A stretch of DNA of 64,000 nt from Escherichia phage EC148, in the sequence record NC_106721.1; one strand, 5' to 3'. Positions within the stretch are counted from its first letter, which is position 1; the number at the start of each line of letters is the position of its first letter. Of the stretch, positions 57,987-62,226 are shown one piece after another. Both the position numbers and the translations under genes were made by a program. Below the pieces are notes generated by a model. It saw only the letters and a program-made list of their open reading frames with translations. It ran no database searches and was not told where the DNA came from.

Positions 57987-58415
57987 ATGTTCAATAATGT
58001 ATTCTCTAAAGAAGCTAACCCAATTTTGGTTAACTTTTGGCGTACTCTACCGGCTAGCCTGTATAATGAGGCTATTAACTCCTTGAAAATATGGTGTGAG
58101 AATAACGAAATCTCCTTTGCTTTTAAAGATGATATTGATGAGGCCCCCTGTATTGGTTTAATTGTGCAGGTAGAGGATGGTCTTGAAGAGATTGTGGGCT
58201 GGAAAGAGTTAGACGAAATGGGCTTAGTTTTTGCGTTAAATTATAAGCTGTTTATGCCTGCTAAGCATCGCCTTGTTGTTAACTATAAAACTAGTGAATC
58301 TCCTGGTTTTCAGGTTAATGAACGTTATGGTTGGTCTTACTCACCGGAAGAAGTAAATGAGGGGATTCAGAAACTTCGACGTTTCGGGTATATGATCCCA
58401 GGTTTAACTGCTTAA
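57987..58415 (+). CDS. hypothetical protein (paralog A)
   Basis: 142 aa; shares a domain with the next gene (C-x-G-[LV] ... W-x-ELD ... MGL[VI]-x-ALN ... P-GL). Confidence 0.45.
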   Translation: MFNNVFSKEANPILVNFWRTLPASLYNEAINSLKIWCENNEISFAFKDDIDEAPCIGLIVQVEDGLEEIVGWKELDEMGLVFALNYKLFMPAKHRLVVNYKTSESPGFQVNERYGWSYSPEEVNEGIQKLRRFGYMIPGLTA

Positions 58416-58424
58416 GGAGGCAGA

Positions 58425-58817
58425 ATGGAACAAGTATATTGGCGTCAGATTGATCCTAGTTTGGTGAAACGTGCGGAGAAGCTGCTACAACGTTGGTTGG
58501 GGGTAAGACAAGCCTCCTTCACTTTTCCGGAGCAGCAAATAGATGATCCCTGTGTTGGTGTTTTCCTATCCGGCTACGCGGGGGAATGGGAGTTGGATTG
58601 GAATGAGTTGTCTGCTATGGGTTTAATTGTTGCCCTAAATTTCTCTTTGTTCCACCCACGTGGTTTGGCCATATGTCGTGTGTCGGATGATGGTTGTTCG
58701 CCCCATCTTTTACAGGTGGAAGATGATATTTGGGAGTACACTCCAGATATTCTCAAAGAAGCTAAAGAACAATTAAACCGTGTTGGGATTTATGTTCCAG
58801 GCTTAAATGATGAATGA
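58425..58817 (+). CDS. hypothetical protein (paralog B)
   Basis: 130 aa tandem paralog of 57987..58415. Confidence 0.45.
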   Translation: MEQVYWRQIDPSLVKRAEKLLQRWLGVRQASFTFPEQQIDDPCVGVFLSGYAGEWELDWNELSAMGLIVALNFSLFHPRGLAICRVSDDGCSPHLLQVEDDIWEYTPDILKEAKEQLNRVGIYVPGLNDE

Positions 58818-58837
58818 TTTTTATTAGCTGAACTCTG

Positions 58838-58868
58838 ATTACCGAGTCATTTTGGCTCGGTTTTATCC
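58838..58868 (+). terminator. rho-independent terminator
   Basis: stem ACCGAG/CTCGGT followed by TTTTATCC. Confidence 0.55.
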
Positions 58869-58908
58869 GTACTCAAGACCAATGATAGCACCATCCGGAA
58901 AATTTTAC

Positions 58909-58937
58909 TTGCAGGATGCCCAAAATCTTGATATAAT
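58909..58937 (+). promoter_or_regulatory. plus-strand early promoter, TTGCAG-17-TATAAT
   Basis: conserved cassette and leader, but no ORF follows for about 480 nt. Confidence 0.5.
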
Positions 58938-58944
58938 ATTTATA

Positions 58945-59430
58945 TTGAATTGAGAGACATTAGTAAAAATTGATTTTGCTAATTTTTCTTGTTTACAATC
59001 CGCGATACGGAACAGTTAGGCTGCCCCATTAAGGGTTGTTTTAACTGTTACGTGTTAGTTTTTAAACAAATAGTTAATAGAATACTTAGCGATCTGCGTC
59101 CCATAGGAACCCTGGTAAGGCCTCGAAGCAACCTAGTATGAGGTGGTTGTGAAGTGAGATGGGAGGAGTGAAAAACTCCGAGACGTGATTCTGTAAGTTA
59201 TATTGCATCTAGTATGAGCTAGTATATGAAGCATTAGGTGAGCAAATCTGGCTTAGCGGCCATCCTCAAGGATTTGTGCGATATAGCAAAGCAGCAGCGC
59301 AGCGTGAAAGTGGAAGTTGCCACCCCCCTTCAGTATTTGCGATTAATTTGTTGAGAAATTGACAGTAACAGTTGTTCTATTCTTTCTGAATAGTCCTAAA
59401 GAAAACTTATTTTATTTCCAACACAGGAGT
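58945..59430 (+). ncRNA. promoter-driven ORF-free transcript (candidate ncRNA or long structured leader)
   Basis: only 4-10 codon ORFs in any frame; GC-richer than surroundings. Confidence 0.3.
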
Positions 59431-59436
59431 ATTGTT

Positions 59437-62226
59437 GTGTTCTCAATCCTACAAGGTCATGCAGGATTTCATCGCGATTTAGCCACAGGCAATTGGCGAG
59501 AAGTTAAAGCAGAAGACTATCTTTTTGCTAAAAGATTTTCCTCAAAGCATCCTGAAGGTAAACCAGCCTCAATGCCCTTCAAGTTTGATGTAATTGATGA
59601 AGTTGATCCTCAAACCCTAGTAGAAATGCTTCCTCTTATGAGACGTTTAACGTCTGACCCTCATATCGTTGCGGTACGAGGTCGATGTCTTGCACCTAAA
59701 AATAATGTGCGACGTAAGAAGGGCAACTTTAATGTATCTAATCCAAGTCATATAATTGCAATGGACGTGGATGGTATTGTAGATACAGGTGGTTGTAACA
59801 AGTTTGATCTTGTTGGCATGGCTCGACATATTATTAGGATGTTAAATAGTATTAGTGAGGATATGTTTCCTCTTGATGCAGGGTTTATCGCTCATGCATC
59901 GTCTTCGGCTGGGCTAAAACCAGGTATCCGAATGCACTTAATACTAGAATCTAATGTTAAAGTAACTCAGGGTCAAATCAAATTCTTATTTACATCTATC
60001 AATGAAAGTAGTAGACAAAAGTACGGCTTTGATATTGCCGACTTAGCTTATTACTCTTCCGTACAGCTCCATTATTTTGCAGATCCGTTATTTACTGATG
60101 GTATAGTAGATCCGTTTAAGGCGGAGGGTGCTTCACGTCTGGTATTTGTTAAAGGTTCTAAAGTAAATTTACCAAATAATCTGGTTGACTATGAAACAAC
60201 TAGAGGTGAGTTTAAGGAGGAGTTTTACTCTTTACTCGATCAAATTAAAGGTAAAAAAGCTGCCTCTGATAAAGTAGAGGAAACTATCAGCGAACTAGAA
60301 GAAGCTGAGGATGGGGTGTACTTGCGTATTATCCCCAAACTATACCATAGAGCATTAGAGGATGGTGTTGATTTTGCATGGCTAGAAAAAGAAATCCGTC
60401 CAGCCTTATCAGAATATATCGCAACTAAAGATAACAGTCGTAATATTCAAGATTATTTTAATAACGGTCGTAAGCAGGCTCTGAAAGCGTTTGTTAATAA
60501 TTCTAAACGCGATATACCCGATATTTTAAAAGGTATTCCACTTAAAAAGCTAGAAACTAATTCTCTAGAAACTGATAATTTCTTGAAACTAAATACTGTG
60601 CCACCAGAAGGTTATATGACTTTTGTAAAAGCGAGTTTAGGCACAGGTAAAACCACGGCGGTTGTGCGTTGGTTAGATTCAGGAGTTATTAAAGGTAATT
60701 TTTTAGCAATTACCAATACTAGAGCACTGGTATCTTCAAATGCTAAGAAATTTAGTGCAGGACAATACGATAAGTCTGTAGATATGCTTAATTTTAAGCG
60801 TGGTGCTATTGACCGTATGTCCACAACTATTCACTCTTTGCATAAGTTCAAGAGTTTTATTGGTCAAATTGATGCAATCTTTATCGATGAATGTGATGCA
60901 GTAATGAACGACCTATTATTCGCCCCGGTTGTTAAACAACGTCGTGAATGTATTCAGGTTCTTCGGGATATTCTTGCAACTGCAAAAATCATTATATTAT
61001 CTGATGGGGATATTAGTGCAGAAACAATTGAAGCATATGGTTCTTTGATTGAGTTTGATAAACCGGTTGCATTTTATAATCATCACCGTAAAATGCTATC
61101 AAAAGCTCATGCTTATGAGTTCCCTGATGAATCCAGTATTTGGGTTGCACTTCAGACTTCTCTAGAGATGGGTGAGAAATCTATCCTAGTATCTGACTGT
61201 GGGCCAGATGAACTGAATGAGAAGGGCATGGCATTGCGTCGTAATACGGGTGCGTTAGTTAAGGAAATCCACTCAAACTCTACATCTGATGTGGATATTA
61301 GACGTATTCTGGATTATACAACTAATGAGCTAATTGACCAACAAATTGATTGCTTATTATGTAGTCCATCCGTAACGAGTGGAGTTGACTTCAACTATTT
61401 TGATAACGTATTTGTTATTACTAGAACTAGTAACCAGGCGCCAAACATGCGTTTCCAAGCAATCAGGCGCGACCGTGGTGCTCAGAATATTTATTATTTT
61501 ATTGATAAATCTACGAGTGGATTCTCCGCAGGTTCTGAACAATATAACATTGATGAAGGTTGGCTGGAATTAGCACAGCAATTATACGCACGTCGTAGGG
61601 AGCTGGAGTCTAGGAACTATACTAGTACTTTACGTTATTACTTGCTTGATCAGGGTGCAACTATTGATATTTTCAGTGAAAGCTGGGGAAATATCGAAGG
61701 TGCAGGAAAAGAGTACACGGAAGAGCGAATCAAAGCCATTTTGTATTCAACTCCTGATTATTGTGCTCCACGCCATGCAGATGCGTATGAAGCTAAACTA
61801 CTTCTTGTTCGCTACTATCATCTTGAGTCTATCAAAGATGTAACAGTTGAGCATGTTGAACAATATATCAAGGATAAACCGAATGATCGAGCGGCATTCT
61901 TCCATAAGATGCACGAGATGTTCTGGGAGGATATTAAGAAGTGTTCAAATGTCACTATCAAACCATTCATAGAAGCTCTGAAAGGTAAGAAGAAAGATTT
62001 CTTCCTTAAAACAGGTCAAAGTGCTAACCCAAAATATGCCAGAATGTATCTTGGTATGATGGGTATTGGTAAGGATATGAACACGGAGAATATTGTAGAC
62101 TGGTACAGAACTTATTGTAAAATCGAGTGTATGCCAATCCCATATAAGTTTATGACTGATGAGGAAAAACATATGCATGATGAAGCAATGGCAGAGCTAG
62201 GTGCTAGAAATGACAGTGAAGAATAA
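59437..62226 (+). CDS. primase-helicase candidate (prim-pol-like N-terminus plus P-loop ATPase)
   Basis: ORF track 59359..62226; start moved to GTG with AGGAG RBS; IIAMDVDGI (D-x-D), Walker A GTGKTT, Walker B IFIDECDAV. Confidence 0.45.
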   Translation: MFSILQGHAGFHRDLATGNWREVKAEDYLFAKRFSSKHPEGKPASMPFKFDVIDEVDPQTLVEMLPLMRRLTSDPHIVAVRGRCLAPKNNVRRKKGNFNVSNPSHIIAMDVDGIVDTGGCNKFDLVGMARHIIRMLNSISEDMFPLDAGFIAHASSSAGLKPGIRMHLILESNVKVTQGQIKFLFTSINESSRQKYGFDIADLAYYSSVQLHYFADPLFTDGIVDPFKAEGASRLVFVKGSKVNLPNNLVDYETTRGEFKEEFYSLLDQIKGKKAASDKVEETISELEEAEDGVYLRIIPKLYHRALEDGVDFAWLEKEIRPALSEYIATKDNSRNIQDYFNNGRKQALKAFVNNSKRDIPDILKGIPLKKLETNSLETDNFLKLNTVPPEGYMTFVKASLGTGKTTAVVRWLDSGVIKGNFLAITNTRALVSSNAKKFSAGQYDKSVDMLNFKRGAIDRMSTTIHSLHKFKSFIGQIDAIFIDECDAVMNDLLFAPVVKQRRECIQVLRDILATAKIIILSDGDISAETIEAYGSLIEFDKPVAFYNHHRKMLSKAHAYEFPDESSIWVALQTSLEMGEKSILVSDCGPDELNEKGMALRRNTGALVKEIHSNSTSDVDIRRILDYTTNELIDQQIDCLLCSPSVTSGVDFNYFDNVFVITRTSNQAPNMRFQAIRRDRGAQNIYYFIDKSTSGFSAGSEQYNIDEGWLELAQQLYARRRELESRNYTSTLRYYLLDQGATIDIFSESWGNIEGAGKEYTEERIKAILYSTPDYCAPRHADAYEAKLLLVRYYHLESIKDVTVEHVEQYIKDKPNDRAAFFHKMHEMFWEDIKKCSNVTIKPFIEALKGKKKDFFLKTGQSANPKYARMYLGMMGIGKDMNTENIVDWYRTYCKIECMPIPYKFMTDEEKHMHDEAMAELGARNDSEE

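What the first reader, a model, noticed from the sequence alone, without database searches (positions are those of the whole stretch)
58870..59436. Promoter-driven transcript of about 480 nt without an ORF, upstream of the primase-helicase gene
A standard plus-strand early cassette (58909-58937) is followed by GC-richer sequence with no ORF longer than 10 codons until the GTG start at 59437. This could be a structured long leader controlling the replication gene, a small RNA, or an origin-associated transcript.
Basis: seen in the sequence. Interest (0 to 1): 0.45.

Follow-up and report, generated by a model that had tools for sequence, protein, structure and literature searches.

The report
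Large folded RNA before T5 helicase gene
The 500 untranslated bases between an early promoter and the phage T5 replication-helicase gene (D2/obp) encode a previously unannotated, roughly 330-base RNA whose shape, but almost none of its sequence, is preserved across T5-like phages, so it is a real functional RNA element of unknown job sitting at the head of the replication initiator gene.

Summary
The window matches T5-like phage T5_ev212. A T5 early promoter (58909-58937) sits just after a terminator. About 500 nt with no conserved ORF follow, up to the GTG of D2/obp (59437). Other non-tRNA promoters of this type in the window mostly reach an ORF within ~30-60 nt (a few up to ~200).

The leader holds a 331-nt folded domain (59043-59373, 107 base pairs in 15 helical segments) closed by a 31-bp stem. 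Two common alleles of this core exist in otherwise 92-100% identical phages, and they barely align by sequence. A covariance model built only from the window-type allele still finds the T5-reference, Klebsiella-phage and Pectobacterium-phage versions full-length (32-110 bits). A sequence-only profile gives 0.6-60 bits.

In the alignment, 93% of cells pair, and 83 of 107 pairs change on both sides. Only 19 columns are invariant, eight of them the hairpin CUUAGCGG. Rfam has no match, and no T5 GenBank record inspected annotates the region.

Function is unresolved. My best guess is a cis-acting leader domain that controls or matures D2 mRNA. The rivals are an origin or primer transcript and a released non-coding RNA. 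I class it as a new RNA family of moderately high interest.

The parts
58841..58866 (+). Intrinsic terminator of the upstream T5.106/T5.107 operon (9-bp stem ACCGAGTCA/TGGCTCGGT, loop TTT, then TTTAT). It insulates the leader's promoter from upstream transcription.
   Evidence: Direct reading. The homologous site is annotated as a terminator in AY587007 and AY543070. The simple scan missed it because the tail has only 4 T in 8 bases.
58897..58937 (+). T5 early promoter: A/T-rich upstream element, -35 TTGCAG at 58909-58914, 17-nt spacer, -10 TATAAT at 58932-58937. The predicted start is near A58944.
   Evidence: 26 such cassettes against 1.2 expected; promoter annotations. A promoter is present at this position in every related locus, even where its sequence has been replaced. 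The start site is inferred, not mapped.
58944..59436 (+). Untranslated leader of the D2/obp mRNA, about 493 nt.
   Evidence: The MFE of the + strand has z = -2.8; the - strand has z = -1.4.
58951..58991 (+). P0, a 5'-terminal hairpin. The stem changes sequence between clades (UUAGUAAAA/UUUUGCUAA here; UUAGACAA/UUUGUCUAA in L041; AUGU.AGUU/AACU.ACAU in L030).
   Evidence: plus by-eye comparison.
59004..59029 (+). Conserved box GATACGGAACAGTTAGGCTGCCCCAT. It is nearly invariant in the A, B and Pectobacterium types and 80% conserved in the Klebsiella type, and it is not part of a covarying helix. Bases 59007-59018 can pair with the 5' strand of P1 (59042-59053) as an alternative to P1.
   Evidence: (I2). 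The pattern retrieved 9 metagenome contigs, all T5-like.
59043..59373 (+). Core folded RNA domain: 331 nt, 107 base pairs in 15 helical segments, arranged as a multi-branch fold closed by P1.
   Evidence: Model R1; searches; pair counts; independent RNAalifold of the other allele.
59043..59075 (+). 5' strand of the 31-bp closing stack P1/P1b/P1c. It pairs with 59341-59373.
   Evidence: helix 1: 31 pairs, 21 with changes on both sides, 92% of cells paired.
59341..59373 (+). 3' strand of the closing stack P1/P1b/P1c.
   Evidence: One-sided U:G to U:A changes in L003/L014 keep pairing on the + strand only.
59094..59099 (+). P3 5' strand CUGCGU, which pairs with 59297-59302 (GCGCAG). In other clades the helix reads CUACAU/GUGUAG, CUGUGU/GCACAG, CUACAC/GUGUAG and CUAGAA/UUCUAG.
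   Evidence: (helix 3, 100% paired, 7 of 9 pairs with changes on both sides).
59242..59277 (+). P7/P8 hairpin. P7 is GCAAAUC/GAUUUGU and covaries fully. P8 is GGC/GCC and closes the loop UUAGCG. CUUAGCGG (59252-59259) is the only invariant block of the RNA.
   Evidence: (helices 13 and 14).
59308..59330 (+). P9 hairpin (AAGUGG/CCMCUU) with the 11-nt loop AAGUUGCCACC.
   Evidence: helix 15, 6 of 6 pairs with changes on both sides. The window itself carries a U.C mismatch that relatives repair as U:A or G:C.
59377..59393 (+). P10, a small hairpin just 3' of the core (CUAUUC/GAAUAG). Other clades have CUAUC/GAUAG, CUUUCC/GGAAAG, UUCUUU/AAAGAA and UUCUC/GAGAA. It is not followed by a U-run.
   Evidence: By-eye comparison. 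The terminator scan is negative here.
59425..59429 (+). Shine-Dalgarno AGGAG of D2/obp, 52 nt after the core domain.
   Evidence: Direct reading.
59437..62226 (+). D2/obp gene (929 aa, GTG start), encoding the T5 bipolar SF2 helicase related to herpesvirus UL9 origin-binding protein.
   Evidence: searches (Pfam Herpes_ori_bp, 29 bits; PHROG 3712), annotations, and PMC3632103.

Best explanation
Shown. The early promoter at 58909-58937 heads a roughly 493-nt untranslated leader of the D2/obp mRNA. Within it, 59043-59373 folds as RNA into a conserved 331-nt multi-helix domain closed by a 31-bp stem. The structure is maintained by compensatory change while the sequence is free to diverge. The exception is one invariant hairpin, CUUAGCGG.

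Inferred. The domain works in cis on the D2 message. The invariant hairpin, displayed on the scaffold, is probably recognised by a protein (D2 itself or another early protein) or by a ligand, and this sets how much initiator helicase is made. The long perfect closing stem is a plausible RNase III site. Cleavage there would mature the D2 mRNA and release the folded domain.

My confidence that this is a functional structured RNA is about 0.9. My confidence in the cis-regulatory or maturation role specifically is the figure given in the confidence field (0.42).
For: - **Structure conserved without sequence.** Model R1 was built only from 12 window-type sequences. It finds full-length (1-331) hits at the homologous site in Pectobacterium-type loci (110 and 86 bits), T5-reference/Epseptimavirus loci (36-47 bits, E 1e-10 to 1e-13) and Klebsiella-type loci (32 bits). 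nhmmer from the same alignment gives 59.6, 12.6, 3.7, 0.6 and 12.3 bits.
- **Pair counts.** 93.2% of cells pair, against 75.5% in shuffles and 35-45% in slid controls. 83 of 107 pairs change on both sides, against 42 in shuffles and 17-35 in slid controls.
- **Window against the T5 reference core.** Identity is 47% in the model alignment. 68 of 78 inner pairs are canonical, and 27 of them differ on both sides.
- **Independent fold of the other allele.** RNAalifold of the 10 B-type sequences reproduces the same outer helix order (the P1 stack, P2, P3a/P3, P6, P6b, P7, P8, P9; the central P4-P5b region was not matched) and shows 6 compensatory pairs.
- **Strand.** G:U cells number 333 against 21 A.C cells. 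Alifold energy is -97/-92 on the + strand against -71/-64 on the - strand.
- **Cis context.** The element has the same strand and position upstream of obp in every lineage. It has its own promoter after a terminator. There is no terminator and no - strand promoter between the RNA and D2. The core ends a near-constant 56-67 nt before the start codon in four clades (coordinates).
- **Single copy.** R1 finds only one copy in the 64-kb window.
Against: - No expression platform was found. The SD is not sequestered in a conserved way, and no alternative terminator exists.
- The domain is far larger than known protein operators of phage replication genes.
- In Proteus-type loci (L032/33) a second consensus promoter lies about 30 nt before the obp RBS. 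There, obp need not be translated from the long leader.
- The alignment used for the pair counts was fitted by the model, which biases it towards the structure.
- No transcript data were found, so the 5' and 3' ends are inferred.
Confidence: 0.42

Rival explanations
1. Origin-associated transcript. The folded RNA, or the R-loop it forms, marks or primes the primary T5 replication origin next to the gene of the initiator helicase, as ColE1 RNA II does or as promoter-dependent T4 and T7 origins do. On this view the divergent core alleles are replicon-specificity cassettes.
For: - The element lies immediately upstream of the UL9-like initiator candidate D2.
- It sits at 48.5-48.9% of the 121,750-bp T5 genome.
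- It lies 3-5 kb from the point where all promoters switch from the - strand to the + strand.
- T5 replicates bidirectionally from internal origins that have never been mapped to sequence (PMC3632103 and PMC10055335).
- The whole core is exchanged as a cassette between otherwise 92-100% identical phages, and the first ~200 nt of D2 is also more diverged, at about 80%.
- A promoter is retained even where its sequence was replaced.
Against: - No antisense promoter or RNA I-like partner is present.
- No conserved iterons were found; the only direct repeat, CTAGTATGAG x2, is allele-specific.
- There is no GC-skew inflection at the site.
- Most promoter-dependent phage origins need no elaborate RNA fold.
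- A recombineering study inferred mainly unidirectional T5 replication from one end (PMC10055335).
Confidence: 0.2
2. Stand-alone non-coding RNA. The domain is cut out of the leader, for example by RNase III at the 31-bp stem, and acts in trans as a scaffold, decoy or counter-defence RNA.
For: - Promoters in this window that are followed by more than 400 nt without an ORF otherwise drive RNA genes (tRNAs).
- The closed, compact, multi-helix architecture with a long terminal duplex resembles stable RNAs.
- Rapid allelic replacement fits an arms race.
- Proteus-type phages have a separate obp promoter downstream of the RNA.
Against: No terminator or other defined 3' end was found. Linkage to obp in orientation and position is strict in all clades. 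There is no similarity to any known trans-acting RNA.
Confidence: 0.15
3. Metabolite- or ion-sensing riboswitch of a new class that controls D2 in response to, for example, nucleotide pools.
For: The element has a P1-closed aptamer-like domain in a 5' UTR about 60 nt from the start codon, covarying helices and a few invariant nucleotides. In A and B types, an alternative pairing of the P1 5' strand with 59007-59018 exists.
Against: Only 19 invariant columns, 8 of them in one hairpin loop, are far fewer than typical ligand pockets have. The alternative pairing is absent from the Klebsiella and Pectobacterium types. No expression platform was found, and the size is well above that of most aptamers.
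Confidence: 0.08
4. The structure functions as single-stranded DNA of the + strand, as a primase or helicase loading signal exposed when the origin is unwound, rather than as RNA.
For: Covariation alone cannot distinguish RNA from sense-strand ssDNA. The downstream protein is a helicase with invariant DxD and SxxGxxxGxRxH motifs in its N-terminal domain, which I read from memory as resembling AEP primases.
Against: A strong promoter reading exactly this strand is kept in every clade. At 331 nt with a multi-way junction, the element is far larger than known ssi or G4-type signals. The primase identity of the N-terminal domain could not be confirmed.
Confidence: 0.05
5. Non-functional spacer or remnant, with the apparent structure an artefact of composition and model-fitted alignment.
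For: The alignment for the pair counts was fitted to the model. Part of the model structure came from an MFE fold of the window sequence.
Against: - The model-versus-HMM gap is 20-73 bits on sequences not used to build the model.
- An independent alifold of the other allele gives the same helix order.
- The slid controls collapse to 35-45% paired.
- Length is conserved at 329-332 nt between alleles that barely align by sequence.
Confidence: 0.03

Closest known systems
ColE1-type RNA II (plasmid replication primer precursor)
   Same: A promoter-driven, several-hundred-nucleotide, untranslated and specifically folded transcript physically linked to replication functions. Sequence-divergent 'specificity' alleles occur among close relatives.
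   Different: No antisense RNA I promoter. The transcript continues into a protein gene. No origin has been mapped at its 3' end. No sequence or structural homology was detected.
Long structured 5' leaders that are processed by RNase III or bound by the encoded protein (lambda N leader; T4 gene 32 and gene 43 operators)
   Same: The 5' UTR of a phage early or replication gene, where a long duplex or hairpin is the control element and the control is cis-acting.
   Different: Those elements are 20-220 nt with one or two hairpins and usually overlap the RBS. This one is a 331-nt, 15-segment domain ending 52 nt before the SD.
Large 'ornate' bacterial and phage RNAs of unknown function (ROOL, GOLLD, OLE, raiA, HEARO)
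   Same: More than 300 nt, many covarying helices, few invariant nucleotides, phage association (ROOL, GOLLD) and no protein-coding capacity.
   Different: No match to any of their Rfam models. Smaller than ROOL and GOLLD. Embedded in an mRNA leader rather than standing near tRNA genes.
Large riboswitch and T-box leaders
   Same: A P1-closed multi-helix domain in a 5' UTR, consistently upstream of one gene family.
   Different: No known class matches. There is very little nucleotide conservation outside one hairpin loop, and no terminator or SD-sequestering platform.

Membership tests
Any curated Rfam 15 family (including group I/II introns, RNase P, tmRNA, 6S, riboswitches, T-box, ROOL/GOLLD/OLE/raiA/HEARO, RNAI) | Match to the family covariance model at or near its gathering score | tested here: not met
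   An E-value-threshold scan of window 58000-60500 gave nothing in the leader apart from a 13-bit chance match (E = 6.9) on the - strand. Nine related loci gave nothing but terminator-like chance hits. ARAGORN finds no tRNA or tmRNA here.
T5 early sigma-70 promoter cassette | TTGC-type -35, 17-18 nt spacer, TATAAT, A/T-rich upstream region | tested here: met
   58909-58937 is one of 26 cassettes against 1.2 expected. The homologous site is annotated as a promoter in AY587007 (T5P32), AY543070 and AY692264.
Cis-regulatory structured leader / riboswitch | Same-strand position in the 5' UTR of one gene family across lineages | tested here: met
   The element lies upstream of obp in all 36 IMG/VR loci. 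Promoter-driven ORF-poor leaders in the same position, not shown to be homologous, occur in the Vibrio and Aeromonas relatives.
Cis-regulatory structured leader / riboswitch | Secondary structure conserved with covariation | tested here: met
Cis-regulatory structured leader / riboswitch | Expression platform: a terminator or an SD-sequestering helix mutually exclusive with the sensor fold | tested here: not met
   There is no terminator-like site between 58938 and 59437. No conserved anti-SD pairing was found. The alternative to P1 (59007-59018 with 59042-59053) exists only in the A and B types.
Cis-regulatory structured leader / riboswitch | Binding of a ligand or protein that changes expression | not testable with these tools
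   Needs in-line probing, EMSA and reporter assays.
ColE1 RNA II-type primer transcript | Untranslated, folded, promoter-driven transcript adjacent to replication functions | tested here: met
ColE1 RNA II-type primer transcript | Antisense regulator RNA transcribed from the opposite strand | tested here: not met
   No - strand promoter-like site lies within 58938-59437 by either scan.
ColE1 RNA II-type primer transcript | Persistent RNA-DNA hybrid and RNase H-processed 3' end at a mapped origin | not testable with these tools
   The T5 origin is not mapped to sequence. Testing needs DRIP or nascent-strand mapping.
Autogenous translational operator (T4 gp32/gp43 type) | Small operator overlapping or abutting the RBS | tested here: not met
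   The core ends at 59373 and the SD lies at 59425-59429. The domain is 331 nt.
Ornate large RNAs (ROOL/GOLLD) | More than 500 nt, independent gene near tRNAs in phages or prophages, match to the family model | tested here: not met
   The domain is 331 nt, lies 19 kb from the tRNA cluster, is embedded in an mRNA leader, and has no Rfam match.
AEP primase fused to helicase (the 'primase-helicase' label for the downstream gene) | Recognisable primase domain in the N-terminal 390 aa | tested here: inconclusive
   Pfam hits only Herpes_ori_bp in the helicase part. Neither a PDB sequence search nor a profile search gives a hit. The AF2 model has pLDDT 35 and is unusable. Invariant D110-x-D112 and S155..G159..G163-I-R-x-H167 resemble AEP motifs from memory only.

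The most novel reading that the evidence does not exclude
This is a new class of large structured RNA that works together with the UL9-like initiator helicase D2 to start T5 replication. It would act as an RNA platform or primer at the long-sought primary origin. The two hyper-divergent core alleles would then be interchangeable replicon-specificity modules that let co-infecting T5-like phages keep their initiation systems apart.
Probability: 0.15. Interest if true: 0.85.

Novelty: new member of a known kind. Interest (0 to 1): 0.62.

Why it matters
T5 has been a model phage for 70 years, yet its replication origin and the control of its initiator helicase remain unknown. This work finds a 331-nt RNA with 107 base pairs at the head of the initiator gene. 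It is conserved by shape across at least four deeply diverged clades, with its one invariant hairpin also in Providencia-, Proteus- and Aeromonas-phage leaders. Only that hairpin is conserved in sequence.

This gives a concrete, mutable target for both open questions. It adds a large structured RNA family that is absent from Rfam and from every phage annotation inspected here. It also offers a natural experiment: two structure-equivalent but sequence-unrelated alleles in near-isogenic phages, useful for studying RNA structure-function and modular exchange.

Tried and rejected
- **Known RNA families and tRNA/tmRNA.** Rfam at permissive thresholds and ARAGORN gave nothing.
- **Hidden small gene.** Stop-free segments match between clades only where the DNA is conserved. 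They match in several frames and on both strands at once, and in different frames in different clades. I rejected a coding reading.
- **Minus-strand RNA.** The fold is weaker (z = -1.4; alifold -71/-64) and G:U cells far outnumber A.C cells. Rejected.
- **Iterons.** The only direct repeat is allele-specific.
- **SD sequestration.** Complementarity of the P2 5' strand to the SD spacer exists only in the window type. I treat it as coincidence.
- **Loop-loop (kissing) contacts.** P5 or P4a loops against the P9 loop are complementary in the window type but not conserved in other clades. Not claimed.
- **R1 with filters off on 79 kb.** The tool failed. On L034 alone it found only the P7/P8 hairpin (6.5 bits). 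Providencia-, Proteus- and Aeromonas-phage versions are therefore linked only by the invariant hairpin and by helices identified by eye.
- **Multi-clade model.** This was not possible because the model-derived alignment exceeded the 400-column limit, and the central part of the B and K types was inconsistently aligned.
- **Metagenome scan with the conserved 5' box.** It gave 9 contigs, all of known A or K type, so no new alleles.
- **D2 N-terminal domain.** The homologue search returned 2 proteins, the AF2 model was unusable, and PDB profile searches were empty.
- **Literature.** Seven searches found no T5 transcript map or description of this RNA. Bourguignon 1976 is not held in the library.

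Full report
**Identity and observation**

The window is identical over the queried stretch to Escherichia phage T5_ev212 (Tequintavirus). The finding covers the T5.107-T5.108 intergenic region. The downstream gene (GTG 59437, 929 aa) is T5 D2/obp. It is a UL9-like SF2 'bipolar' helicase proposed to be the replication initiator (PMC3632103).

It is one of 26 such cassettes in the window, against 1.2 expected. All three T5 GenBank records annotate it as a promoter after a terminator. They then leave about 470 nt blank.

ATG-initiated ORFs in the gap are at most 9 codons (direct reading). Mechanical TTG/GTG ORFs reach 50 codons, but none keeps a frame in relatives.

The gap is unusual. Outside the tRNA region most cassettes are followed by an ORF within 14-64 nt (three at 111-205 nt). 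Gaps above 400 nt occur only at promoters in the tRNA region and here.

**Conservation pattern**

Thirty-six related IMG/VR loci, down to 55% obp identity, all keep a promoter followed by 480-820 nt without a long ORF before obp.

Between the window and reference T5 the flanks are 92-100% identical. The stretch 59057-59363 drops to 29-46% identity per 100-nt bin in the MAFFT profile, yet it has the same length, 331 against 329 nt. Both alleles are common: 162 records carry the window-like 'A' form and 266 carry the T5-reference 'B' form. Both occur in Tequintavirus and in Epseptimavirus, so the core moves as a cassette.

Further forms occur in Klebsiella-phage loci (K, L030/31), Pectobacterium-phage loci (L041/42), and Providencia- and Proteus-type loci (L034/35, L032/33).

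**Structure**

Reading the clades side by side showed helix after helix in which both strands change together. Examples:

| Helix | Window | Other clades |
|---|---|---|
| P3 | CUGCGU/GCGCAG | CUGUGU/GCACAG; CUACAC/GUGUAG; CUAGAA/UUCUAG |
| P7 | GCAAAUC/GAUUUGU | AAUAGAAUC/GGUUCUAUU; GUGCGGGU/ACCCUGCAC; AUACGGG/CUCGUAU; CCACA/UGUGG |

I fixed these helices on the window sequence. The constrained fold costs -95.5 kcal/mol against an unconstrained -97.8.

I then built covariance model R1 (331 positions, 107 pairs) from 12 A-type sequences only. R1 finds exactly one hit in the 64-kb window. It also finds full-length hits at the homologous place in clades that were not used to build it. A sequence-only profile from the same alignment scores far lower:

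| Target | R1 (bits) | nhmmer (bits) |
|---|---|---|
| L041 | 110 | 59.6 |
| L042 | 86 | 12.6 |
| B type (L022 / L026) | 36-47 | 3.7 / 0.6 |
| K type (L030) | 32 | 12.3 |

Shared structure, not shared sequence, therefore carries the signal.

On the 24-sequence model alignment, 93.2% of cells pair, against 75.5% in shuffles and 35-45% when partners are slid. 83 of 107 pairs change on both sides, against 42 in shuffles and 17-35 in slid controls. The window and reference T5 share 47% identity in that alignment. Even so, 68 of 78 inner pairs are canonical in T5, and 27 of them differ on both sides.

Because that alignment is fitted to the model, I also ran RNAalifold on the ten B-type sequences alone. 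It returns the same order of outer helices (the P1 stack, P2, P3a/P3, P6, P6b, P7, P8, P9; the central P4-P5b region was not matched) with six compensatory pairs.

The fold belongs to the + strand:
- G:U cells number 333 against 21 A.C cells.
- Alifold energy is -97/-92 on the + strand against -71/-64 on the - strand.
- Single-sequence z-scores are -2.8 against -1.4.

Only 19 columns are invariant across the A, B, K and P types. Eight of them form the hairpin CUUAGCGG at 59252-59259. This 8-mer occurs exactly once, on the + strand and in the leader, in 43 of the 46 loci held at that point. That count includes the Providencia-, Proteus- and Aeromonas-phage loci.

**What it is not**

Rfam 15 has no match, even at E = 10. 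ARAGORN finds nothing here. No phage record inspected annotates an RNA in this region.

**Anatomy of the transcript** (inferred start near 58944)

- P0 hairpin, 58951-58991.
- A 26-nt conserved box, 59004-59029.
- The core, 59043-59373, closed by a 31-bp stack.
- A small conserved hairpin P10, 59377-59393, without a U-run.
- SD at 59425-59429 and GTG at 59437.

There is no terminator and no antisense promoter inside the leader.

**Mechanism**

It is shown that this is a structured RNA element within the D2 transcription unit. Its function is inferred.

I favour a cis-acting role (0.42). The strict same-strand linkage to obp, the private promoter and the near-constant 56-67-nt spacing to the start codon in four clades are the signature of leader elements. 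The single invariant hairpin on a variable scaffold suggests a protein recognition site. The 31-bp closing duplex is a plausible RNase III substrate, and cleavage there would mature the mRNA.

Several points weigh against this reading. No expression platform was found. The domain is very large. Proteus-type phages have a second promoter just before obp.

The main rival (0.2) is an origin or primer transcript. The site lies at 48.5-48.9% of the T5 genome, next to the initiator gene and 3-5 kb from the point where promoter orientation flips. T5 origins are internal, bidirectional and unmapped. From memory, unverified because the paper is not held, Bourguignon et al. 1976 placed the first origin near the middle of the genome. 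Cassette-like allele exchange resembles replicon-specificity modules.

The other rivals are a released trans-acting RNA (0.15), a riboswitch (0.08), a sense-strand ssDNA signal (0.05) and an artefact (0.03).

**Wider family**

Vibrio and Aeromonas T5-like phages also carry promoter-driven, ORF-poor leaders of 650-1800 nt before obp. These have conserved islands and some compensatory pairs. R1 does not detect them, so homology is open.

**Verdict**

This is a new RNA family, not in Rfam or in any annotation inspected. Its function is undetermined but testable.

Noticed in passing
L012, L025, L036 (about 2000-2100 in each); also Gostya9 and Kenya-K42 (hits H4 and H6): An insertion of about 98 nt lies between the 5' hairpin P0 and the conserved box of the leader. 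It occurs on both A-type and B-type cores, giving leaders of 597-600 nt instead of about 500. It could be a small mobile or accessory RNA module.
   Followed up: partly
L002 2016-2468 (AKFV33 orf111); also L008, L015, L020, L028: A homing (HNH) endonuclease gene is inserted between T5.107 and the leader. In these phages the leader is driven by a different promoter sequence (TTGCAAGGGAGTATTATTTTATAGTATAAT). A promoter at this spot is therefore retained even when its sequence is replaced.
   Followed up: partly
L043 1328-2428; L044 1660-2371; L045; L046 495-2308; L056-L060: Vibrio and Aeromonas T5-like phages have promoter-driven, GC-rich, ORF-poor leaders of 650-1800 nt upstream of obp. They show conserved islands and 25 compensatory pairs in a 5-sequence alifold. 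In Thalassavirus a predicted 5' segment (GAUUUCC) pairs with the obp SD. These may be much larger relatives of the T5 RNA or an independent RNA.
   Followed up: partly
L046 about 1140-1165 and 1395-1432: The Aeromonas phage AhSzq-1 leader carries a 10-bp perfect stem with the same UUAGCG loop that is invariant in T5-like phages, plus a second possible UUAGCG hairpin (by eye). The two lie about 260 nt apart.
   Followed up: no
window 16402-63506: All 22 TTGC-N19-21-TATAAT promoters up to 53640 are on the - strand, and all 4 from 55667 onward are on the + strand. This makes a sharp divergent-transcription switch at 53.6-55.7 kb, 3-5 kb left of the leader.
   Followed up: no
L032 and L033, 2435-2464: Proteus-type phages have a second, perfect TTGACA-N18-TATAAT promoter about 30 nt before the obp ribosome-binding site, downstream of the structured region.
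   Followed up: no
window 59007-59018 versus 59042-59053: A 12-nt segment of the conserved box is complementary (92%) to the 5' strand of P1. It closely resembles the P1 3' strand (shared AACAGUU), giving a possible co-transcriptional alternative to closing the domain. It is present in the A and B types and absent from the Klebsiella and Pectobacterium types.
   Followed up: partly
window 57987-58415 and 58425-58817: The two genes just upstream (T5.106 and T5.107) are tandem paralogues that both carry DUF7415. One pipeline annotates them as 'exonuclease' and most others as hypothetical.
   Followed up: no
window 59133-59147 and 59209-59223: The direct repeat CTAGTATGAG occurs twice, 76 nt apart, falling in the P5 loop and the P6b hairpin of the A-type core. 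It is not present in other alleles.
   Followed up: partly
window 59437-60606 (D2 residues 1-390): The N-terminal 390 aa of D2 has no Pfam or PDB sequence match. It does have invariant D110-x-D112 and S155/S157/G159/G163-I-R-x-H167 across relatives of 27-100% identity. The 'primase' label used in some annotations is unverified.
   Followed up: partly
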